64,000 bases of DNA from Schmidtea polychroa. Lineage: Eukaryota. A program made the position numbers and the translations under genes. Each line of letters opens with the position of its first letter. The stretch's first letter is position 1. The notes below the pieces were generated by a model. It did not search any database. It worked only from the letters and a program-made list of their open reading frames with translations, and was not told where the DNA came from. Positions 4,108 to 60,266 of this stretch are shown here, piece by piece. The DNA lies in contig CM097885.1 in NCBI GenBank assembly GCA_044892525.1, forward strand, positions 10,294,001 to 10,358,000, read 5' to 3'.

Positions 4108-5559
4108 AAAAGAAAGATAGGAATTCAAAAAAAGTTGAAAAGATGATTGCCCCTTGAATTATCTACCCCATCGAGTGATAATTATATTGAACGAAATATA
4201 GTGACAAATTGTAATTTGATTGAAATTAAATAAAGTTATTCTGTGGTGGGTTTCGATTTATCTGTTTGAATAAGAACACGAGAATCCAAAGAGAGAACCG
4301 ACGCTAGAAACATAACCCAACAATTTTTAATTAATTTGTATTTATTGAATGTCATTTTCTGGTAACACCCCATTGGTTTCATATTAGTATATCTGTGTTC
4401 TTCTCAACGTTCGCTATAGGTACATGCGTACATATGGAATACGTCATTTTGATTTTTTTTATTGCTTTTAGCGTTTTATCAATTTGTACATTTAATGTTT
4501 TGAACATTCAAACTTATTTTGAATTAATTTTTACGAACCTCAACACAACCAATAATCGTTTTATCCATTTTATTTTTTATTTATTTTAAATTTAATTTCT
4601 TGTTTCACAGCCGACAGCTCTCCAAGAAAGAATCATATGTTATTCTAAACCTTGTTGATGGTTATGATTTACTCGTGTTTTACTTATCTTAAATTAATTA
4701 TGTTTTTTGTTTGTATTAGTTTCGAATCACTAAAATAAATCGAAAATTCCAAGGTCGGAGCCTAAAAATTATTATAATAACTATTATAAAAACCATACTG
4801 TAACCTATTTACATTGTGATATCAATAAATAAAAATATAAAATTTTTTTATAATTTCTTAAAAATAAAACTTTAAAAATAGAAATAATTCTTAATTACAC
4901 TAAATAAATACATTATTAAAAAGAAAATCATTTTCAACAATTCGAAATATTTGTTTAAAATTATCAATTACAAAATCAAATATAAGAAATGTAATTTGAA
5001 CTTGATATCATTTAGTTGATTTCAGCTAGTAAATAGTCAAATAAAATAAAGATGCCGGATAAAATAATCATTGTAATTTAATTATCCACTCAATGAAAAA
5101 TCAGTTTTCAAAATTTACAGAAATCATACTGATGGTTTACATGCTATTCAATTTTTGTGATAATAATCTCATTCCCAAAATGGAAATACCCTACAAAAGT
5201 GAGTTTAATGTTAATAAATTTATTAATATAGTTAATTTTATTAAATTTTCTTGCTAATTAATTCTGATTATTTATAAATCGTTTTCAATTTATTTGTCTA
5301 GTTTTATTAAGTGTTTTTCTACTGTTTGGGTGGTACTTTTTTCAGTTCTGCTTATTTAATATCTCACTGACAATCGTATTACTTTAATTATTCTTGTATT
5401 TTTAGTCAAAATTTTATGATGATTTAAAAAGTAACAAAATGTACTTTGAAAATGAATCTAGATAAAATATTAAAGAATATTATTTTTACATGAAATATGA
5501 ATGAAGAAAATAGCTTTTGATTCTTAAAGTAAAAAATGTAATTCAAAATATAAAAATAT

Positions 5560-6850
5560 AAAATATAAAAAAAAAAAAAAATTAATGAAAAATTTCGAGC
5601 CTTTAAACAAATTTATTAATTCGGCAATATCGGAATTAATATTTATCATCGCCAGACCATTTGCACAATCCAGGACCATTGTTGATCTAAAATAATTTTT
5701 TATACGTTTGAGTATGCTGAAACTTCTTTTTGCCTCTGCTACACTAACTATAAACATTTTTTTTGTATATATATTTTTTGCATATATATTCAGAAAACCC
5801 ATTTTAACTATATATTTTAAAAGCTCGCACTCTTTCGTACAGCCTTCAAAATTGTTTTAATATACTCTTTGAAAAAATTGAAATTCTTCAATATTTATTA
5901 ATGATTCAATGATCTCGTTAAAAATGTGATTGTGAAACTTTACTTCTGCATATACTTGATCTTTTATTCGGTGATTTGTCGCAAATTCTGTAACAATTCA
6001 TAGGTGCTGCTAATTGCGTTGACTCGGAAAGAAACGAAGCCCATGCATTTTTAATTTCCTTGATATCTTCAAAGAGATTGTCAATTTTAATTTCCGCTCT
6101 TGGAGAATTAGATTTATTTAATGCAATAAAACCAGAACCTTCATCTAAATTGTAGATATTAGTACACATTCAAATGATGACAAATATTTTTAAAACCATT
6201 TAGCCTCAACCCGAAGACTAGGTAGCTTAAATTTGTTGATGACTGATAATAAGGATTTTAAATGAAAAGCAAGTGGCTTAAGAGCATCTAGGTTATGAAA
6301 TGTTGTGTAAATAAATTTTTTTTCTTTAAAACCTCCCATCTCTATCATACGATTCTCCAGTTGGAAGGTTCTTTGAAAGTAAACAATATGTAAATCCATG
6401 GTTCGTTGCGTCTTTTGAAATATTTTTTGGGATTTCAAACCGAATAATTTTCATAAATAATTTCATTTGCGCCTGATTATTTTTATCGAGCATTCTAATA
6501 TCTGTACACATTAATATTTCAGTATTCAATAGATTTACTTCAATTCCACTTTCCGTTTGCACGTTCCTCAAATGATCATTTTCATCTGGTAATTCTCTTA
6601 CACTGTGGTTACAATCTCAATGCTCTCAACGGTATTTTCATCCACTTGCTCTATTTTGCTAACCATATCGCTTACTGCAGTTTCAACTGTGGATTTTTCT
6701 TTATTAAATATTGAAAGTCTTTCTGCTTGATTTGATGAATCCTTTATTAAAAAAATGTGAAATCGGTTTTAAACTTTTAATTGCTGACTTCTTAAGTTTT
6801 TTCTTTTTTTGGCGTCACTTTCAAAAGTTCTCTTCGTCTTTTAATTACCA
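5560..6850 (-). mobile_element. Degenerate hAT transposase (ZMYM1-like)
   Basis: ORF 5524..5802 has the hAT dimerisation motif SVAEAKRSFSILKRIKNYFRSTM...NGLAMINI; further broken ORFs upstream. Confidence 0.8.
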
Positions 6851-14789: not shown

Positions 14790-16560
14790 AAGTTGTTATA
14801 TTACGTATGTCTTTAAAACCTGCAGCAAACTCTGATTTTATTATTTTCAAAGACTGTTCGCAAAGGTCATTTTTAACCAAAAATGGTGGTTTCAGTGTTT
14901 AACAGTTCTAGAAAGTGTATAAAATTTGACTGTTTCATTTGAGTGATGTTAATAAGTCTAGATTCAAACCCATTTACCTCCTTCATCATTGTTGACAATA
15001 TTTGATTTTGACCTTGAAATTTTATATTGAGCTTGCTAATATGATCCGTAATGTACGTTAGAAATGCCAGTTCTGCAATAAAAACAGGATTTTTAAGATG
15101 ATTTAACAATTCTACTTTGGATTTCATTCCTAGAAAATGTTTAATTTCATGCACCAAATTCCAAAATCATGTAAGCCAGCGAACATCTATATGTACAACT
15201 AAATCGTACTCTTCTAACACCAGAATAGTATGTAAGGACTCCAACCCACTTTCGAGGTCATCTCAATGTCCAGATCAAATATAGGTCAATTGAATCATTT
15301 TATTTTTTTTTAAAATTTTATTTAATTACTTCTATTTAATTTTTAATCTTATTAATTTAATTTTATTTTATTATGTTTTAATTTTAATTACTTAATTTAG
15401 TTAATTTTTAATTTATTACATTTAATTAATTTTTTTAGGTTTATCTCTTAATAAATTTTAATTATTATTAATATTATTATTATATTTATTTATTAATATT
15501 TTATTATTATTATTACTTCTTTTTATTATTATTATTATCTTACATTTACATTTAATATATTATAACAATAATATTTGAATTTTTACAAAATTTTAATTAG
15601 TAATTATTAGAATTATTATAAAATAAAGCTGTGTTAATTTTAAATAGAAAGGGCATTAATTTTTCAGAAAAAAAGTAATAATAATAATAAAATATTAATA
15701 AATAAATATAATAATAATATTAATAATAATTTAAATTTATTAAGAGATAAACCAAAACAAAATTAATTAAATAACGTAAGTAATTAAAATAAAATATTAA
15801 TAAAATAACTAATTAAATGTAATAAATAAAAAATTAACTTAAGTAAGTAATTAAAATTAGAACATAATAAAATAATTAATTAATAAAATTAAAAATTAAA
15901 TAGAAGTAATTAAATAAAATTTAAAAAAAAAATAAAATTATTCAATTGACCTAAATTTGATCTGGACATTGGGATGACCTTGAAAGTGTGTTGGAGTCCT
16001 TACATCATACTACTCACCAGCTTGAATTACTGGTGATTTAATAGATTTGCATAAATGAAGTTTACAATCTTTACAATCATGTTCAATATATTTTTAAATT
16101 CATTAATTTTCAGTTTAGAAAGAAGTGCTTGTTGGTGAATAATACAACGATAATCTTGGAAGTCTGGAAAATCTAAAACCGATGTGCTGTATCTCCATTA
16201 TATCTCCACCTCTTGTATTGTTCATGAATAAGAGTGCCAACAAATAAAGCAATACTAGTTTAAGTATATTGTTCAATTCCTATTGCTACAGTTTGACGAA
16301 ATAACTGAAGATCGCTTGTCTACTTCTTGATTTCATTTTTATTCTTAAACTCAGCAAACAACGAATCTGCACATTCTTGAAAACACAATTTTACCCTTTC
16401 ACTATTTGAATACGGTTTTTGTTATTCTGCAGCACAACGACTTGAATTTAAATAACACTGAAAAGGGTTTTTTGGTCTTGTTATCATATATGCCTGTATT
16501 TTATTTGGAGCAGTTGACTATGTTGTGGGTATTCACGGAGTTTTGATGTACATAAGCAAG
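14790..16560 (-). mobile_element. Degenerate hAT (SPIN/Charlie-like) transposase, interrupted by the 15224-16014 insertion
   Basis: RCIIHQQALL, DLVVHIDVRWLT and ELAFLTYITDHISKLNIKFQG motifs; the frame rejoins (FKLV|LEEYDL) when the insert and one TSD are removed. Confidence 0.85.
15224..16014. mobile_element. Non-autonomous foldback element with Polinton/Maverick-type ends
   Basis: Long imperfect inverted arms; termini AATAGTATGTAAGG / CCTTACATCATACTACT (revcomp AGTAGT...); 6-bp TSD CACCAG at 15218-15223 and 16015-16020. Confidence 0.75.
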
Positions 16561-20558: not shown

Positions 20559-21418
20559 GTAATAATAATAATTTAATTAATTATAATTTAATTATAAGAA
20601 AGCGCCTCCTTAACTTTGGCTTTACGATATTTTATAATAATATATAATAATATCCATTTTTATTTCTGCTGTTCATTTCCTAATTCCAACGAAATTTATT
20701 TCAAAAATCTAAATAATATAAAAAGCTGGAAATTAGATAATCATACATTAGCTAACCTTAAAAGAGTGTATGTAAAGAGTATATGTAAAGATAATAATTA
20801 TAAAAGAATGCATAATCAAGATTTCTATTATATGCAAATCTTTAATTAAAATTTTTTTAATTTCTATGATTTTAGTTTCAATATTTTAAGTTTTTCAATT
20901 AATGTTTCTGAAATTAAAATTATTTCGTTTTATCAGATCCAAAGTAAATATAAAGTAATATAAAGATAAAATTAAAATAAAACAATATTAAATTTCAATG
21001 TCACACTAATAGATGAAAGTTATTATAAAGGTTTTCCTAGATAACCTCAATGAAACTGCTTTATATTCGTTAATTCGTTTTTATTTCTGTTAAAATAGAG
21101 GGAAATTAACTTCCTTCTTTACAATTTTGCCAAGTTATTTATTTTATGATGAAAATATTAAAAGTTAAAATTTTATATTGTTGAATATTTTCGAAAAGAT
21201 GAGGAAGGGGAATACGGAAATTATCTGGAGAGTATTTGACATTCTAGTTAATGGAGTTGACAAAATATTTATAGCTCTTGACAAATTGTTGATCCTGAGT
21301 TATTAGATAATTATAATTCTTGGATTTTTGTTATTGTAAAATTTATTTACTAAAATACCAAGTTATCACAAACCAGGGGCAGGCAAATGGCCATTCAATT
21401 AAACATTCAATTTGCTTA

Positions 21419-21982
21419 CTATACCATACTATTATATATATATAAGGGTGTTTGAATAAGTTCAAGAAATGGTATAACAATTTTATTCTCCTCCAAAGGG
21501 GCACGTGGATCAGTTTTGAATAATAACCGTTTGTCCATTTCAATATCATAAGATAATGCCATCATTGAACAACCTAGTGGTCGCATCTCAGCCGATTGGG
21601 AATAGAGTTGATCAATATCCGCAATAGAAGAACATATTATATCCCAAGGCATTTCATGTCCAATTTTGGATTCAAATCGAGCTGCTTCCACTTGTGCACG
21701 ATAAACTTGAGATCGACAATCAGGGATCATACCAATCATAACACCTCCAGTACTTTCAGTAATATTAAACAATCTTGTAGCTGAACTCGTCTCAATCATT
21801 TTATCGGGAACTTTTCCTTTTGCATATCTATCGATTTCATTAAGCCAATTTTTAACATTGTTAAACGAATCTTGATCGGTAACATCAAACACAACAATAA
21901 TTCCATGAGCTCCTCTGTAATAAGACGAGGTTATAGTTCTAAATCTTGCTTGATCTGCTGTATCCCATATTCGCAATTTCAT
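21419..21982 (-). pseudogene. Intronless chimeric ORF: Rab1 fragment fused in frame to a proteasome alpha-6 (PSMA6-type) fragment
   Basis: aa1-54 [53 protein letters not shown] is Rab1; aa57-159 KVPDK...[14 protein letters not shown]...[19 protein letters not shown]...FKTDP is PSMA6-like. Confidence 0.9.
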
Positions 21983-22329
21983 TGTATCACAAAAAACTTC
22001 CCACTTCCAGAATTCTATCGATTCAAAAATTCCACCCAGAAAAACCAGAAATCAAATCAAATCTAATCAATAAATCACATTATAAATCTACTTCTCGCGT
22101 CTGTGTGCGCACACCAACAAGAATCGGTCGAACCAGACCGCGCACACAGACGCGATAGAAAAAACGCTAAACGAACTGCCAGTCAGAGGCAATCCCCCTC
22201 TGACTGGTCGAAACAGTGTTTATAAAGTAATTTCGATATTTCCCGACAAAGGACCTAATTGTATTTTTTCACAGACAATTTCATACTTAAGCCATATAAT
22301 CATTATATATTTTGACAGGAGATCGTATT

Positions 22330-23610
22330 CTAAAACCTCTGCTGATAAATAAATCACTTAAGCCACGAAGGTTAATAAAAAGACGTAAGTTACTTCATCC
22401 GTTTTCAGTGAGTGGTTCAATAATTGTTTTGTTCCAGAGGTAAAAGGTCTATATGAAGGATAAAGACATGATATTTAAAATTCCTTGGGTTATAGACAAC
22501 GCTTCTTGTCACCCAGTTTTGGAGCATTCTAATGTAAAAAATAGTTTTTGCCTCCTAATACTACTGCGCTTATTCAATCATTGGACCAATGTATAATTAC
22601 GACGTTTAATCTGTATCACAAAGAATTCTTTTCAATACATTTTGAATAAAATGGATACTGATGTAAACCTTAATTTTATCGACGCTTGGAAAAAACTTTC
22701 AATATTGCATTGTGTGAAACATGCTGGCGTAGCCTTATCCGAAATACGACCATCGACCTTGAATGCCTGTTGGCAAGCTATTTGGCCGCAATGTGTTAAA
22801 AACAAAAATTCTACCGTCACATCAAATACGACAGACGAAGTGTGTAATGAAATAATCACTTTGGCACCAGCTGTTGTAGGTGAAGGTTTTTATAGTTTCA
22901 CCATTAATGACATAAACGAAATGGCTGTTGATAGAATCCTTAACGAAGACGAGTTACTAGATATTGCATCGGATAACGAAGACACTGATCTACAAAATAG
23001 AAATGATGAGGGCGAACAATGCTCATTAACAGCTAATTCAATTCTTGAAGGCAGATCATTTTCTAACTAATGATCATATAATCGAACGAGCTGCGAAATT
23101 TCAATCTGATATGAAATTTTGTATGGGTCGCTACAAGGAGCTGTTCAAAGAACTGCTCAGACTAAGAGCACAACCAAAAATTACTGAATTTGCTATTAAA
23201 ATAAGTAACCCTGTGCGTGAAACTGTCTCTGATAATCTATTAGCAGTAAAATATTTTAAGTCAACGCAAAAAAGAGAATGTGGCTACTATCTGAAACTGA
23301 CTCCGAATAAAAATAACATTAAATACAATATAAATGTTCGTGAATATAAATGTGATTTTTAAAATCTTTTTTAAAATATGTAATAAAAATTTTATAGCTA
23401 TATAATATAATAGCTAGATAATATTAGATTAATAAAATATGTATGGATATATGTACTAAACTACAAAACTTGATTTTGATTCTTTCATTATTAATTTTTG
23501 AAGGAGTTTTTATTTATGGAACCGATCTCTTGTTTTTATACTACTGTGTGTCTTTTTTTACAGTGTTTCGTGGAATGTATCTACCGTGTAAAAACAAGAT
23601 TGGGTAATGT
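22330..23610 (+). mobile_element. Degenerate Tigger/pogo (DDE_1) transposase
   Basis: FSEWFNNCFVPEV, IDNASCHP, FLPPNTTALIQSLDQ and LNACWQAIWPQCV motifs with frameshifts. Confidence 0.85.
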
Positions 23611-30384: not shown

Positions 30385-33300
30385 GTGTAAAAAAACCAAA
30401 AGAATAAATAATTTGCATATTATCAAAGATTTTATTTTGTTTATTCTTTCTGGAGTTTTTTCAATAAATATGGTATTGTGGATTTGCCATAACTAAGAGA
30501 ACTTTGGATAACAAGGTTCTGTAAAAACAGCATAAAGAAAGAATCAGACACGTTGGATGTAATGTGCGTCTTCTGATTTCTGTTTGGACAATAACAAGAA
30601 GCAGTGCTGTGCTTGAACAACGATATGGTAGCAAATAAAAGCTTTCTCATTACAAAATAGAATTCACCTTCATTGAATCCAATTCAAGAGCCAGAAAAAT
30701 TCCCGAAATCATTGTAACTTGTGAACTCAATTTGAACATTTGAAAAATACTCAATGGCATTCGAATAATAGGACGACATTTGTAAAATCCAAAAACCAGA
30801 AATATTGAAAACAAAATTAGTAGCTTCTTTTTTTTGAGAATTTCAATTTCGACAAAGCGTAGTAAATTATAAAACTCAAAATTACAAAATTACCAAAGCT
30901 ATATATAAGACCTACTACAATATCTATTCAATATTTAAACAAACATTTTTTTAATTCTAACATGAATTAATTTAACACCCAAATTTTGTCGAATCATCCT
31001 ACAAAGAATCCAAACAATTGGGCTGCCAATCGTTATATTTATCATGGTTCAAATTTTGATCCAAGGTAGATAACTAATAAATTCACTATAAACCGAGGAG
31101 CTAAAATAGCTATTTTCTGTCATGATTGGCAAAATGATTAATGAAATATAAACGGAATTGTCAGATGAATATTTATAAATGAGCCTTATTGAAGGCAGAA
31201 TTATATTTTGGAATTGCTCAAGCGATATCACATAAGCTCGAAACTTTGAGATTTTATGGATTCAGAGATCGAAACTAGAACAATTAACTTGAAGCAATTT
31301 AATGAATGAAACTGCTAAGGAAGAATCGATTAAATTCTCTCTGTCCTGCAATGGATCTGCTGTGTTCTCGACTGATGGATAATGAAGAAAAACTAAGGGT
31401 TTTCTGTAGCATTCATAATGCTTGGAATGTCGTCATAATTCAGAACCCAACAATACACTTTCGGAAGAAAGACGATTGTAAATAATGATGAAAACTGAAA
31501 TTCCAAATTCGAATTGAGACATAGAAAAATTGTATCAATTATTAACAATAAATCAAATTCCAAAGTCAAATTCAAAAAAACTATTTACAAAAAACTTTTA
31601 ATAATATATTTAAATGTTTATTTTACAAAATTTTTTAATTTATCACAAAAACTTTATTTTTTTTTGTTTTATATTTTTTATGAAAAAGTAAAACTTTTTA
31701 GCCCTGAAAATATTATGGTGGAAAAAATTAAACTAATTTGAAGAATATAATACTTATTTATATAGTTAATGAAATAAAAACATTAAAAATGTTTTCGTTA
31801 ATATTTATTAATTTTCGAATAATAAATATTCATCATAAAATCTCCTCTAGGGTTATTTTGGAATTTTTATAGAGGTTTTCAGCACTGAGTTCAGAAATAA
31901 ACGGTGACTGTAATATGGCGACCATTTTATTAGCTAATTTTGCAATACAAACCAATTTTGAAGTTATTATTTTGTAATGATTAAAATAATTTTTAAAAAA
32001 TTTTATTATTTACTAATAATAGTTTACCTAATTGAATTTTCCATAAAAATATCATATCTAAGATCAATGTTCAGATCAAATGATTCAGATCAAAAATGAT
32101 AAGATTAAATGATTTTGTTAAAAATAAATATTAAATTGCATTTAAATAATTGCATAAACATTTTACAAATAAAAATAAAAATATTTAAATTAAATGGCTA
32201 AATTACAAATAACTTCTATTGACTTGTATTGTATGACAATTAAACACACTACAAAAATGTGTTAGAACAAAATCGGATTTACCAAGTTACACAAACCAGC
32301 AATTGATATGCATTTAAATGACATTGATTTCGCTTTTCACAATATTAATATTAACTTACCTATAATAAATTTGTGTATGTGTGTGTATCACAGCCAGAAC
32401 TGATATTGAATTAGCTTCGTTACATTAAATAGGCTCTTACACTATAGAAAGATAGAAAAAAATTGATGATAGAAGAAAAATAAATAAATACACACAAACA
32501 TGGTTCACAACATTTCTATAACAAAAAATACACACAATTGGACATTGAGTAAGCTTCCTGACACTTAATAAGCTTTAAATATTCAATATATTGGATGGTT
32601 CTTTGAAATTAATTATTTCCAGCTCAAGAAATCCATAGAAATGTGTAGTTTCTTATTAAACTTTAGTTAATTTATAAAACCTTTCTATAGAATAACCATA
32701 GATGATAAAATAAGATTATTGACAAAATAGAAAATAGGCCATATTCTTGGAATCAAAAAGAAAACAGTTACGTGTTAAAATAAAATATAGAAAGACTCTA
32801 ATTTAATAAATAAATTAAATAAAAAATGACTTACTTTTTTATCATAAAATCTTAAAGATAATTTAAAATAGTTATATTAAATGAAAGAAATAAGAATAAA
32901 TCCTTTAACATACATAAAATTTAACATAAAATTTTATATTAGTATTAAAACCAAAGCAAAGCTCAATTGATTTATCTTATTTAATGCCAATATAATGATT
33001 ATCAATTGCGCTTTGGTGTATTATGGATTTCGACAAAAAACTTTAATGGATGTATTTTCTGTAAGGGATGTATCTTATTTCAATTTTGACTGTTTGTTTT
33101 AGTATATTTCAGTGACTAGCAATCTTTGTGAAGTTTGTACCTCGCTCTAACCCCACGTGCTCTTTAGTTAAATTAAAACAATGGCATCCAATAGAATAGA
33201 ATTAATTTTATTTAACCACAATTTTAATAATACTGTCAGGAATGCTTTTACTTTTATTTGCACCTTAAATAAAAGTGTTAAGGTAGGTATTTCCAAGGAA

Positions 33301-41190: not shown

Positions 41191-41454
41191 ATAACAACAT
41201 GTAAGATAATAACAACGGTCAAAATACAACACGGTTTATAATATGTTGTACAATAATGTATGAATATAAACTGCAAACATTTACAAAATAATCATTATTT
41301 TCCATTCGAAACAAAGTTTTTTAAATCTAAAATAGTACTTTTTAGTAAATGTATAAATATTTTCGATCAGTAAATGTATGAATATTTTTACATACAACAT
41401 TATATAATAACTTGTGATCACTAGTCATCGTAGATTGTGCCATGTCCGTTCTGT

Positions 41455-41880
41455 AAATTACATTATAATAGTCATAACCTTCATAAATTGCCATAGTATG
41501 CGATACACCATCCACAGAATCCGGAACGATACCCTTTGTACGATAAGACACATACAAAAAAGGAACTGCTTGAATAGTAACATACATAGCAGCAACATTG
41601 AATGTTTCAAAAATAATTTGAGTCATTTTTTCTCTGTTAGGTCTGGGATTCAATGGCACTTCATTAAGAAAAACTGGATGTTCATTTGGCGCAAGATTCA
41701 ATTCATTGTAAAATGCATGATGCCTGCTTTCTTTTATAATTCCAGTTCGAACCAATGTTGTGTTCAATTGGAAATTTCAACGTTAAAATACATCCCTTAG
41801 ACTGATTTTTATCATCAACGTAGTTCTCCTTTTAACCCATACCAATCATAACTCCTTGATGTCTTAATCGATCAACAATT
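41455..41880 (-). pseudogene. Actin pseudogene fragment (about residues 34-170)
   Basis: RHQGVMIGMG*K...[10 protein letters not shown], then [42 protein letters not shown]...[12 protein letters not shown]; stop and frameshift; no introns. Confidence 0.92.
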
Positions 41881-42456
41881 TAAAATAGCAGTAAATTCCA
41901 AATTTCAAAAACTTTTATTAATTCAACACAATTTGAAAATTCCACTAACAAAAAAATCCGAATAAACCAAAACATAAAATTAATTCCAAAAAAACTCGAA
42001 ATAATTTCAATTAAAATTCGAAACATCAAAATTGACACACATCAAATTATATCCAACTCGGTACTCGATGTGTGCAAAATCATTGTGCGCACACAAACAC
42101 GAGAACAACAAACAGAACCAAACAACTTGTTTAAATAAAGAATTATCGATTAATAAATCCAGTATAAAAAACAATATAATCTATTAAAAAAAGATATTTC
42201 AAAAATACTTGTTTAATTTGAAAAAAAAAATACTTTGAACTTACATGTTTAATTTTAAGCAAACAGTTAGAATATTAAATATCAAATCACAACAATTAAA
42301 TAATAGTAATTTAGAAAATAACACGAGTGATAAATAATAATTTTTATTTATCAATTGCAAAAATAATGTTATTTTATATAAAATAATTTCTTCAGTTTTA
42401 GTTGTTCTCTTATTGCAAAACTGAAAAAAAACATTTTATTTTAAACAATAGAAAAA

Positions 42457-48669: not shown

Positions 48670-49400
48670 AATATTTATGCACCAAAGATCAGCGCTTCCA
48701 TACTTACAGAAAGTACATGTCATAAGAAACGAGAAACGAAGAATAGCCAATCGATGCACTGAAAAAAACGAAAAATTTAAAGAACAATCAAATTTCAATA
48801 AAATCCTACACAGAAACGGATACCAAAGTGAGGACATTGAAAGAATGAATTCTACCCCAAAAAAATCTAGAGAATTAACACAAAATAATCAGAAATATTT
48901 CTATCTGAATATCCCATTCATCAGTGACATACTAGACTTCAAGATCCTGAAAGAACTTAAACATACCGGTCTTCCAATTCGGATAGCACATAAATCTTGG
49001 ACATTGAGAAGGGCTCTGACAGGCAACATAAATAGAGAAAACAAATTGCACAATGGAAAACTGCCAGACACCGAAAGATGTGTGCTTTAAAAAAAACATC
49101 GTCTATTACATCACATACAATGTATGCAATGAAATCTACATTGGAAGTACCCTCAGGACCTTGCACCAAATAGTTAAAGAACATTTAGATTCTGGTGGAA
49201 CATCCTCGATAAACAGACATCTCCAACAATGTCAACCAACAGAGGAAAGAAAAAATATTTCAATCGACATAGTAACCAATGGAAACATTCAAAAAAAATG
49301 TCAGATTCAAAGAAGCAATTCTCATCATAAACAGACGGCCAAAAATCAACACTAAAGAAGAAATCAATGAAATCATCAATTTTATCTGTTGTCATTGACC
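48670..49400 (+). mobile_element. 5'-truncated Penelope-like element (RT thumb/linker plus GIY-YIG), frameshifted
   Basis: ILHRNGY, LNIPFISD, C..KNIVYYITYNVCNEIYIGSTLRTLHQIVKEH, then RFKEAILINRRPKIN in another frame. Confidence 0.88.
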
Positions 49401-53844: not shown

Positions 53845-54659
53845 CAGCGTTGCCAACCGTACTATAATTATAGTATTTGTACCATAATTTGTATCTTGTG
53901 TACTATGTACTATTGGAAGTTCTAATTGTACTATAATTTTAACAAATTTATCTAAAACATTTTTTCACTACGATATTTTAATTTTCTGAAAACAATTAAT
54001 CAGAATTTTTCTAAAAAAACTTTAATCAATATTAATTTTTTACAAAACGTTTGACATTTAAGAGGTTGTTATACCCTTTCCCAAAAAATGCTTTCCGAAA
54101 AATAACAATTTTTCTTTTTATTTATAATTCAGTATTTTAAAATATTTTAGCATAAACTTATCAGAAAAAAAGTAAATTTGATTTTTTTCTTATAATTTTG
54201 AATTATAGATTTTTGTATTAATTAAAAATGAATAATTTGATAAATCCTGCATCATCTGTTATGCTTTGATGCTAAAATATTTTAAAATACTGAATTATAA
54301 ATAAAAAGAAAAATTGTTATTTTTCGGAAAGCATTTTTTGGGAAAGGGTATGACTGACGCTTAAATCAAAATAGAATTATGCTATATGTAACTATAAATA
54401 TATAATAAGTATTATTACATATAAATTTATTACTTAATTATCATATGAATTTGTTTGCTATTGTTTTTATGTATATTTTTTAATGGGTCCTGAAGAAAAA
54501 CCAAATATTTTAATTTTTGTTAATTTAATTTTAATAAAAAGTTTATAATAGAAAAGCATTTTTTTGTAGTTTTTTAAATATGTACTATAATTTTTTTGAA
54601 AATACTATAATTTTGTCCATATTGTACTATAATGACATCTTCAAAAGTTGGCAACCCTG
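53845..54659. mobile_element. Non-autonomous DNA transposon with 8-bp TSD (hAT- or P-like)
   Basis: TIRs CAGCGTTGCCAAC / GTTGGCAACCCTG; perfect TSD CATCAGTA; subterminal GTACTATAA repeats. Confidence 0.88.
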
Positions 54660-59379: not shown

Positions 59380-59738
59380 CTAAAATTTGTTAACACATCC
59401 ACATTCATCATCTCCACATTTCATAACATTTTCAACAACATGATCTATACAATCGCTATATACACGTGGTTCAGTATCTGTAAATTCCTCCATTTGTTCA
59501 TCAATTTCTTGAATACTTTCCTCATCATCTTGAGTGTTTTCTTCATCAGTTTCATAAAATCCCGAATTTTCACTCTCTGCTACCCAGTCTATATTTAATG
59601 CATTTGTAACAGATAATATATACTCCATTTTCACACCAGATATTTCTGCCAATTTTTCCAATAAAAGGTTTATTACAAATTCTAAATATTAAATAATTCG
59701 ATAATTAATTAATCATATTAACCTTTTTCTGTAGTCAT
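59380..59738 (-). CDS. Small acidic protein, two exons (59738-59723, 59681-59380), function unknown
   Basis: ATG at 59738; a 41-nt GT..AG intron (59722-59682) restores the frame MTTEKEFVINLLLEKLAEI...CGDDECGCVNKF*. Confidence 0.5.
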
Positions 59739-59844
59739 TATTATTAGAATTTGAAAACTATAGTGTATATTTGTTTTTAGAAAATATAGAAAATAGGTGA
59801 AAACAAATATAACTAAATACTTTTATTAAATACAACAACAACAT

Positions 59845-60266
59845 TTAATAAAATATCTGTGAAAGTCTAGCAGACATAAGTTTCCAAATTGGAGAATACA
59901 CATCATTATTATCAACTTTATATCCTTGTATTGCAATTGTTATATACCAATTTTCGTTTTCTTTGAAGCTGATTTCATCAAAGGAATCATAAAACTTTAC
60001 ATATCGGTTGTTGAAAAATGCATGTTGATTACATGATAGATTCGTATTCAAACGTTTGAAAACCTCATCAATAGATTTAATATCTATCATTGAAAGTGTG
60101 CCAGATAAGAATTGAAATTGGGTAGGAATTAGCTTGATCGGTGACACCAATTTCATATTGATTTCTTCTTTTAAAAAATACATTTTGTAGTTGTGGAACA
60201 TTTGAACAGGTTGCACAAGTTCTGGAATACTTTTGGTTTTTCAGTGCTTGAAACTTTCTTTGTCAT
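59845..60266 (-). CDS. Unknown protein, ~140 aa, frameshift near the N-terminus
   Basis: TATAAAA at ~60307-60301, ATG at 60266, 123-aa open frame, AATAAA shortly after the stop. Confidence 0.45.

What the first reader, a model, noticed from the sequence alone, without database searches (positions are those of the whole stretch)
21419..21982. In-frame Rab1-proteasome alpha6 chimeric ORF
Seen: a 187-codon uninterrupted ORF joins the Rab1 switch II region (G3 motif altered to DTADQ; no P-loop or prenylation tail) to an internal PSMA6-like segment at ~21820-21815, then to a third unrelated tail. No introns. Inference: mRNA fragments stitched together by reverse-transcriptase template switching or a capture element. 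An open frame despite divergence could be chance or a young chimeric gene.
Basis: partly seen in the sequence, partly recalled or inferred. Interest (0 to 1): 0.7.

Follow-up and report, generated by a model that had tools for sequence, protein, structure and literature searches.

The report
Solo LTR carrying Rab1-proteasome gene pieces
The fused Rab1-proteasome reading frame is real, but it is not a new host gene: it lies inside a lone terminal repeat left by a very abundant retrotransposon whose repeats have picked up pieces of housekeeping messenger RNAs, an unusual place for such cargo.

Summary
The 187-codon Rab1/PSMA6 frame is confirmed. It is not a free-standing gene. It lies in a 763-bp solo LTR, 21453-22215 (minus strand): TG...CA ends, a 5-bp target-site duplication, about 1000-fold higher contig depth than the single-copy flank, many different flanks at 22215, and one sister contig leaving the 3' end into a tRNA-Met primer-binding site. 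Parent-like contigs place the Rab1 piece at 21979-21809 and the PSMA6 piece at 21816-21507. They overlap by 8 nt in one frame, as template switching predicts. The 'third tail' is the LTR's own end plus about ten codons of flank, so the stop codon is accidental. Both pieces are crippled fragments. Most likely they were captured stepwise into the repeat during reverse transcription, amplified with the family, and left here by LTR-LTR recombination. The frame may stay open because in full-length copies it leads into Gag; earlier notes claim this for sister families, and I could test only six codons. No listed contig bridges the junction itself, and the superfamily could not be tested. Known mechanism, unusual location: cargo inside the LTR.

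The parts
21453..22215 (-). Solo LTR, 763 bp, begins TGT and ends TCA
   Evidence: Ends and TSD. Depth jump, 23 X1 contigs and 4 X7 contigs leaving at 22215 into differing flanks, and one X7 contig leaving at 21457 into four LTR-end letters plus a PBS-like motif.
22216..22220 (.). Target-site duplication, upstream copy (5 bp)
21448..21452 (.). Target-site duplication, downstream copy (5 bp)
   Evidence: the only CA+TSD match within 3 kb of the read-defined 5' end; chance of a 5-mer match at a given place about 9e-4
22179..22207 (-). Hairpin 1 (11-bp stem) at the LTR 5' end
   Evidence: z = -5.4 as RNA for 22080-22215
22095..22155 (-). Hairpin 2 (16-bp perfect stem); function unknown, no Rfam match
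21983..22094 (-). U-rich leader with a TATAA word at 22084-22080 (promoter role inferred only); 21958-22054 is the least shared bin of the LTR
   Evidence: motif; depth 931 in X1 against 6,000-76,000 in the other seven LTR bins
21809..21982 (-). ATG (21982-21980) and Rab1 mRNA piece: switch II to just before G4; G3 glycine and the following glutamate changed
   Evidence: parent-like X9 contigs leave at 21979 and 21809; 5 of 49 near-invariant columns differ
21809..21816 (-). 8-nt zone where the Rab1-like and PSMA6-like contigs both align, same codon phase: the template-switch junction
   Evidence: table 7; phase
21507..21816 (-). PSMA6 mRNA piece (about residues 54-156 of 246)
   Evidence: parent-like X9 contigs leave at 21816 and 21507; 12 of 47 near-invariant columns differ
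21453..21506 (-). LTR 3' end read in frame (18 codons), with the only AATAAA of the LTR at 21487-21482; sister copies have other sequences after the PSMA6 piece
   Evidence: loose ends at 21511 in X1 and X5
21419..21452 (-). End of the ORF in flanking DNA (TSD, AT-rich flank, accidental stop); not part of the element
   Evidence: single-copy X1 contig 20608-21492, depth 7.67, no differences

Best explanation
The ORF is cargo of a high-copy LTR retrotransposon family, and this locus is a solo LTR. Shown: LTR ends, TSD, very high repetition, a PBS behind a sister LTR, two internal sense mRNA pieces overlapping in frame. Inferred: during reverse transcription the enzyme switched to co-packaged host mRNAs at short similar stretches. 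A PSMA6 piece came first (shared by about ten times more contig depth, more diverged); a Rab1 piece was added later in a subfamily. The pieces lie between a TATA-like word and the only AATAAA, so probably in a long R region; an insert made while strong-stop DNA is copied would pass into both LTRs and spread with the family. One copy inserted here beside a decayed pogo-like transposon, and LTR-LTR recombination removed the internal part. The frame now runs into flank and stops by accident; this copy most likely makes no useful protein. The frame probably stayed open because in full-length elements it is translated as the front end of the Gag frame, so continuity matters and amino-acid sequence does not. 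That last step is the weakest (about 0.6).
For: Depth in X1 is 25,506-76,190 over the four PSMA6 bins, 6,194 over Rab1, 60,111 and 27,377 over the hairpins, against 10-17 at 21182-21375; X5 shows the same pattern. 23 X1 contigs leave at 22215 with agreement 0.48 (many flanks). The X7 loose end at 21457 carries the motif that PMC3587641 describes as a PBS complementary to tRNA-Met. TG...CA with a 5-bp TSD falls exactly on these read-defined ends. Sinbad LTRs also run TGT...TCA. The loose ends of X9 continue as Rab1 (ELDGKT before, NKLLVGNK after) and as PSMA6 (VVATQ before, a GF..GH.A stretch after), matching homologues. Tan et al. report microsimilarity of median 6 bp and two-gene chimeras made by a Pao element. 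Neutral simulation: at 10-12% divergence the 176-codon frame stays open with probability 0.05-0.07 (stops only) or 0.001-0.012 (with indels). The 19 loose letters past the LTR end hold no stop in the ORF's frame (read by hand).
Against: None of the 32 pieces shown (of 3,281) bridges the Rab1/PSMA6 junction with 31 letters on each side. Only one listed contig shows the PBS. No internal gag or pol sequence was obtained, so read-through into Gag rests on six codons and on unchecked earlier notes; the LTR end plus PBS also forms an ATG in another frame, where Gag could start instead. Depth is a sum over contigs and no copy number. X9 is only guessed to be RNA, and its 88-90% identical contigs may be sister copies, not the parent. 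At 3% divergence an open frame is unremarkable (0.14-0.41). TG...CA with a 5-bp TSD is common by chance (61 pairs in the window); it counts only because the ends were set by reads. No empty-site joint appears among the 15 of 17 joints shown.
Confidence: 0.85

Rival explanations
1. Same solo LTR and capture, but the open frame has no role: it is a neutral passenger (or an upstream ORF) and Gag starts at its own ATG at or after the PBS.
For: An ATG arises across the LTR end/PBS boundary in another frame (loose end, read by hand). Sister contigs show indels and a 70-bp go-back joint inside the PSMA6 piece (tables 5, 5c, 7). Tan et al. note that young captures are often in frame simply because they are young.
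Against: Two junctions and 176 codons stay in one frame despite many amino-acid changes; low neutral probability at 10-12% divergence. Three earlier notes report in-frame ubiquitin-Gag fusions for sister families (unchecked).
Confidence: 0.3
2. A young, functional chimeric host gene (retrogene) making a Rab1-PSMA6 fusion protein from this locus.
For: Intact ATG-to-stop frame; a promoter-like and a poly(A)-like word in the LTR.
Against: The stop comes from flank; the AATAAA lies upstream of the stop, so a transcript ended there would lack it; G1, G2, G4, G5 and the prenylation tail of Rab and more than half of the proteasome subunit are missing; conserved residues are changed; this copy carries the minority letter at three listed sites, two of them amino-acid changing; no protein with both parts among 375 stored homologues.
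Confidence: 0.04
3. Assembly artefact joining two repeats or two cDNA-like fragments.
For: No listed contig bridges the junction; repeats are where assemblies fail.
Against: A matching TSD on both sides, an in-frame join at the overlap of the two parents, a 100-bp X7 contig identical to 21818-21917 at depth 33.6 in a run whose single-copy flank is almost uncovered, and an X1 contig crossing the 3' boundary without differences (X1 may be the source sample).
Confidence: 0.04
4. Capture by another kind of element (Helitron, Pack-TIR) or an L1-type processed pseudogene.
For: Strong hairpins at one end; a pogo-like DDE remnant lies directly upstream (weak E-values 0.03 and 0.14).
Against: No terminal inverted repeat beyond the first two letters, no poly(A) tail, both pieces lack their mRNA 3' ends, 5-bp TSD around TG...CA, PBS behind a sister copy. 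The depth profile separates the LTR (thousands) from the pogo remnant (119-414 in X1).
Confidence: 0.03

Closest known systems
LTR-mediated retroposition in metazoans (Tan et al. 2016, PMC5131818; passages and section 5 read)
   Same: Partial mRNAs, sense orientation, short similarity at switch points, two parents in one chimera (their example is carried by the Pao element BATUMI), further amplification as part of the element.
   Different: In their Drosophila set the retrocopy replaces part of the internal ORFs between the LTRs and exists at one or a few sites. Here the cargo is inside the LTR, survives in a solo LTR and belongs to a very high-copy family.
Bs1 of maize (as described in PMC5131818 and PMC7264820 passages)
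   Same: Pieces of several unlinked host genes carried and amplified by an LTR element.
   Different: The passages describe the pieces as flanked by the element, not as part of its LTR; plant host.
BEL/Pao elements of flatworms: Sinbad (PMC554778, one passage) and the Flow families (PMC3118150, passages)
   Same: LTR termini TGT...TCA as in Sinbad; earlier notes assign the cargo-bearing LTR families of this genome to BEL/Pao.
   Different: Sinbad's LTR is 386 bp and no host cargo is mentioned in the passage read. Membership could not be tested here without RT or integrase.
GalEa Copia elements (PMC3587641, passages)
   Same: Same 12-letter tRNA-Met primer-binding site and TG...CA ends.
   Different: Their LTRs are 133-217 bp. 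The PBS reflects the tRNA used and does not define the clade.
Burro/GYPSM1 giant Gypsy elements of planarians (PMC6431247, passages)
   Same: A planarian LTR element that has taken host-derived domains, including a ubiquitin-like one, into its polyprotein.
   Different: Burro's domains lie in the internal ORF behind an N-terminal Gag; here crippled fragments lie in the LTR.

Membership tests
Solo LTR of an LTR retrotransposon | TG...CA termini | tested here: met
   22215 and 21453
Solo LTR of an LTR retrotransposon | 4-6 bp target-site duplication at both ends | tested here: met
   5 bp, at ends defined independently by contigs
Solo LTR of an LTR retrotransposon | Dispersed copies with different flanks | tested here: met
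   About 1000-fold depth over flank; 23 X1 contigs leave at 22215 with agreement 0.48
Solo LTR of an LTR retrotransposon | PBS directly behind the 5' LTR in full-length copies, absent at the solo copy | tested here: met
   One X7 contig (depth 20.7) shows it; motif identity from PMC3587641; no such motif at this locus
Solo LTR of an LTR retrotransposon | Paired LTRs around gag/pol and a polypurine tract in full-length copies | not testable with these tools
   No genome held; two metagenome scans empty
BEL/Pao superfamily | RT/RNase H/integrase phylogeny and domain order | not testable with these tools
   No internal sequence obtained; assignment comes only from unchecked earlier notes
BEL/Pao superfamily | Terminal letters, TSD length and PBS type compatible | tested here: inconclusive
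   TGT...TCA as in Sinbad, but that paper calls such ends common to many LTRs; the same PBS occurs in GalEa Copia; a 5-bp TSD for BEL/Pao is recalled, not from a call
LTR-mediated retrocopy (Tan et al. 2016) | Partial, sense mRNA pieces, possibly from several parents | tested here: met
LTR-mediated retrocopy (Tan et al. 2016) | Microsimilarity at switch points | tested here: met
   8-nt overlap of the two parent-like alignments at 21816-21809; whether it is a perfect match was not displayed; the two outer junctions were not resolved
LTR-mediated retrocopy (Tan et al. 2016) | Cargo replaces part of the internal ORFs between two LTRs | tested here: not met
   Cargo lies within the LTR, upstream of the LTR end and PBS
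LTR-mediated retrocopy (Tan et al. 2016) | Introns of the parent gene lost | not testable with these tools
   Host genes not available
LTR-mediated retrocopy (Tan et al. 2016) | Co-transcribed from the LTR | tested here: inconclusive
   X9 covers all LTR bins, but it is only guessed to be RNA and contigs cannot show level or strand
L1-type processed pseudogene | Intact mRNA 3' end with poly(A) tail and TSD around the retrocopy itself | tested here: not met
   Both pieces are internal; no poly(A); TSD surrounds the LTR
Functional Rab1 GTPase | G1-G5 motifs and C-terminal prenylation cysteines | tested here: not met
   Only Pfam Ras positions 48-107 of 162; G3 altered
Functional proteasome alpha-6 subunit | Full N-terminal helix and complete sandwich fold | tested here: not met
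   Only residues 53-157 of 246
Pack-TIR / Helitron capture | Terminal inverted repeats, or a CTRR 3' end without TSD (definitions recalled) | tested here: not met
   (25 longest of 216 inverted pairs shown)

The most novel reading that the evidence does not exclude
A retrotransposon lineage in this flatworm-like genome gains from loading its LTR with pieces of essential, highly expressed host mRNAs (Rab1, PSMA6, probably actin; DUSP12, eIF4A-III and others in earlier notes) kept in frame ahead of Gag. The benefit could be camouflage: small RNAs against the LTR would also hit essential genes. Or the released N-terminal fragments act as decoys for proteasome assembly or Rab partners. The LTR would then be a serially reloaded, selected cassette, not a passive trap.
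Probability: 0.15. Interest if true: 0.75.

Novelty: new variant of a known kind. Interest (0 to 1): 0.45.

Why it matters
For this locus the result is deflationary: a repeat remnant, not a new gene, and such copies will be mis-annotated as Rab or proteasome paralogues. For the family it matters more. Cargo inside the LTR is copied twice per insertion and survives in every solo LTR, so the genome holds very many diverged fragments of essential mRNAs. That bears on piRNA/siRNA cross-targeting of housekeeping genes, on RNAi and read mapping in this animal, and gives a large natural series for testing where template switches happen and whether selection acts on frame rather than on protein sequence. 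The phenomenon was already noted by four earlier findings of this scan in the same genome; this adds a new cargo pair, a resolved junction and signs of stepwise capture.

Tried and rejected
No genome is held for this window, so copies, full-length elements and host genes could not be fetched. Protein searches found no Rab1-PSMA6 fusion and no close PSMA6 relative: near lengths, best PSMA6 identity 56% among 120 shown of 4,344; longer, 120 shown of 155; shorter, none; representatives, 150 shown of 28,044; 0 of 375 stored proteins match both parts; exact sequence not in the collection. Rfam: nothing in the window at gathering scores or in 21400-22300 at E up to 1, so snoRNA, hammerhead and similar readings of the hairpins have no support. 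No tRNA genes. Two exact-pattern scans of JGI metagenomes were empty; 35 IMG/VR hits to a 15-mer showed no extended similarity (longest alignment 49 nt at 76%). A two-mismatch PBS-like site at 59571-59585 lies in an acidic ORF with no CA before it: rejected. My first TSD search missed the true end because its range stopped at 21420 (corrected). The single-sequence structure prediction was uninformative (mean pLDDT 34) and is used neither way. The bacterial promoter scan does not apply. No RNA holder was listed by the run search; this says nothing on expression. X5's flank contig stops at 21444 in a TA run, so presence or absence of the insertion in X5 is open. An X7 contig leaving at 21819 could be a sister LTR with another upstream module or the host gene's intron; I could not tell and do not count it. 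Literature searches returned no paper describing host mRNA pieces inside LTRs in frame with gag; the library lacks most subscription journals and Repbase, and no supplements were read.

Full report
Observation. The minus strand of 21419-21982 gives 187 residues and a stop. Residues 1-60 match Pfam Ras and 55-167 Pfam Proteasome. The best solved-structure matches are Rab-1A and proteasome alpha type-6. tblastn with homologues puts Rab1 at about 21985-21820 and PSMA6 residues 55-156 at 21814-21506. The window is AT-rich, microsatellite-rich eukaryotic DNA; earlier notes call the genome flatworm-like (unchecked). No protein with both parts was found in four searches (0 of 375 stored proteins).

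The carrier. Upstream of the ATG lie two strong hairpins with no Rfam match. My first reading was a captured chimera on some mobile element. Earlier notes on this genome then pointed to LTRs that carry host-gene pieces, and I tested that here. Contigs of four public runs were laid on 20600-23500. In X1 the summed depth is 10-17 on the flank at 21182-21375 and 931-76,190 in the eight bins from 21473 to 22248; X5, from another study, shows the same shape. This depth is no copy number, but a thousand-fold step marks a high-copy repeat. Twenty-three X1 contigs leave at 22215 into sequences that disagree with each other, as expected at an element end. One X7 contig leaves at 21457 into four letters ending in CA, followed by the motif that PMC3587641 describes as a primer-binding site complementary to tRNA-Met (passage). 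In the window these two ends are TG at 22215 and CA at 21453, with the same 5 bp on both sides, the only such match within 3 kb (chance about 9e-4). A TSD by itself is weak, since 61 TGTT...CA pairs with a 5-bp repeat occur in the window; it counts because the ends came from contigs. No PBS follows this copy. It is a 763-bp solo LTR.

The cargo and its joints. Contigs of X9 (guessed to be RNA) leave the window sequence at 21979 and 21809 into the Rab1 residues expected before and after the piece, and at 21816 and 21507 into the PSMA6 residues expected before and after (read by hand). The two parent-like alignments overlap by 8 nt at 21816-21809 in the same codon phase. The PSMA6 bins have four to twelve times the depth of the Rab1 bin, and the leader bin is lowest. 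The PSMA6 piece departs from 12 of 47 near-invariant columns (20 homologues) and the Rab1 piece from 5 of 49 (330 homologues); some PSMA6 departures may be the host lineage's own. Both facts fit PSMA6 first, Rab1 later in a subfamily. A 100-bp X7 contig identical to 21818-21917 at depth 33.6, in a run that barely covers the single-copy flank, suggests that the Rab1 piece is itself multi-copy. Against: none of the 32 pieces shown of 3,281 bridges the junction with 31 letters on each side, and only 24 of 588 loose ends and 40 of 344 differences were displayed.

How it most likely works. Reverse transcriptase switches to co-packaged mRNAs at short similar stretches; Tan et al. found such stretches at 25 of 29 junctions, median 6 bp, and a two-gene chimera carried by a Pao element. 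Here the inserts lie between a TATAA word (22084) and the AATAAA (21487), so probably in a long R region (inferred; no transcript ends were mapped). An insert made while strong-stop DNA is copied would be passed to both LTRs and spread with the family (inference from established retroviral replication). One copy landed next to a decayed pogo-like DDE remnant (weak E-values), and LTR-LTR recombination left the solo LTR. Neither fragment can work as its parent: the Rab piece lacks G1, G2, G4, G5 and the prenylation tail and has an altered G3; the PSMA6 piece is about 100 of 246 residues.

Why the frame is open. X9 contigs differ from the PSMA6 piece at 15 of 147 and 17 of 141 letters. If that is divergence from the parent, a neutral 176-codon frame would stay open with probability 0.05-0.07 from substitutions alone and 0.001-0.012 with indels; at 3% divergence it would be 0.14-0.41 (my simulation with assumed rates). 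The 19 letters past the LTR end in the X7 contig hold no stop in this frame, which is only six codons, and an ATG forms there in another frame. Three earlier notes report that sister LTR frames run through ubiquitin into Gag; I could not check this. I put the front-end-of-Gag reading at about 0.6 and the neutral-passenger reading at about 0.3. Cellular ubiquitin inserts acting as cleavage signals in pestiviruses are a recalled parallel (one search gave a listing only).

Comparison with what is known. It works like LTR-mediated retroposition but fails one of that paper's features: there the cargo replaces internal ORF sequence, here it is in the LTR. TGT...TCA ends match Sinbad, the PBS matches GalEa Copia, and neither is diagnostic, so BEL/Pao membership is untested. 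Planarian Burro elements carry host domains internally. Seven searches found no paper on host mRNA pieces inside LTRs in frame with gag; the library is incomplete and no supplements were read. Papers seen: PMC5131818 (passages and section 5); PMC3118150, PMC6431247, PMC3587641, PMC7264820, PMC6238403 (passages); PMC554778 and PMC2774666 (one passage each).

A second candidate in the same window. 41415-42124 (minus) runs TG...CA with a 5-bp repeat, shares a 22-letter motif (20 identical) and a roughly 37-letter stretch with this LTR's 5' part, and holds a decayed actin piece. Its ends were not checked with reads and its 5' part does not fold better than shuffles, so it remains a candidate.

Verdict. 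Observation confirmed, interpretation partly supported. The locus is a solo LTR of a high-copy retrotransposon family with two host mRNA pieces inside the repeat (confidence 0.85), not a young host gene (0.04) and probably not a misassembly (0.04). New variant of a known kind; interest 0.45, because the family-level feature is unusual but already seen several times in this genome and its function is unproven.

Noticed in passing
window 41415-42124 (-): Candidate second solo LTR (710 bp, TG...CA, 5-bp repeat) with a 5' motif like that of the main LTR and a decayed actin piece (stop and frameshift; Pfam Actin E 6.6e-21). Ends not checked with reads.
   Followed up: partly
window about 22250-23315 (+): Moderately repeated, decayed pogo/Tigger-like transposase remnant directly upstream of the LTR (Pfam DDE_1 at E 0.03 and 0.14; X1 depth 119-414).
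   Followed up: partly
window 21819 and 21816, run X7: One contig continues upstream of the PSMA6 piece as spliced PSMA6 with one difference from X9; another continues 255 or more letters into a different sequence that could be an intron or another LTR module.
   Followed up: no
window 21659-21728, runs X9 and X7: A go-back joint (about 70-bp duplication) inside the PSMA6 piece in some sister copies, depth 127 in X9; different sequences also follow the PSMA6 piece at 21511 in X1 and X5.
   Followed up: no
window 31052-31261 (-): Dymeclin-like exon (Pfam E 1.2e-07); the solo LTR may lie in or near an intron of this gene on the same strand.
   Followed up: no
window 48671-49352 (+): Fragments resembling the end of a Penelope-like element (weak GIY-YIG match, E 0.008; Penelope label recalled).
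   Followed up: no
window 15230-16005 and 54056-54366: Two long imperfect palindromes (about 77-79% self-complementary), probably MITE-like or foldback elements.
   Followed up: no
window 59383-60240 (-): Two unexplained open frames (131 and 102 residues, the second very acidic); only a weak INTS5_N match (E 0.002).
   Followed up: partly
window 20891-21084: Another short repeat with an end at 21018 (20 X1 and 25 X5 contigs leave there into differing flanks).
   Followed up: no
window 5527-5856 (-): hAT dimerisation-domain remnant (E 0.0013).
   Followed up: no
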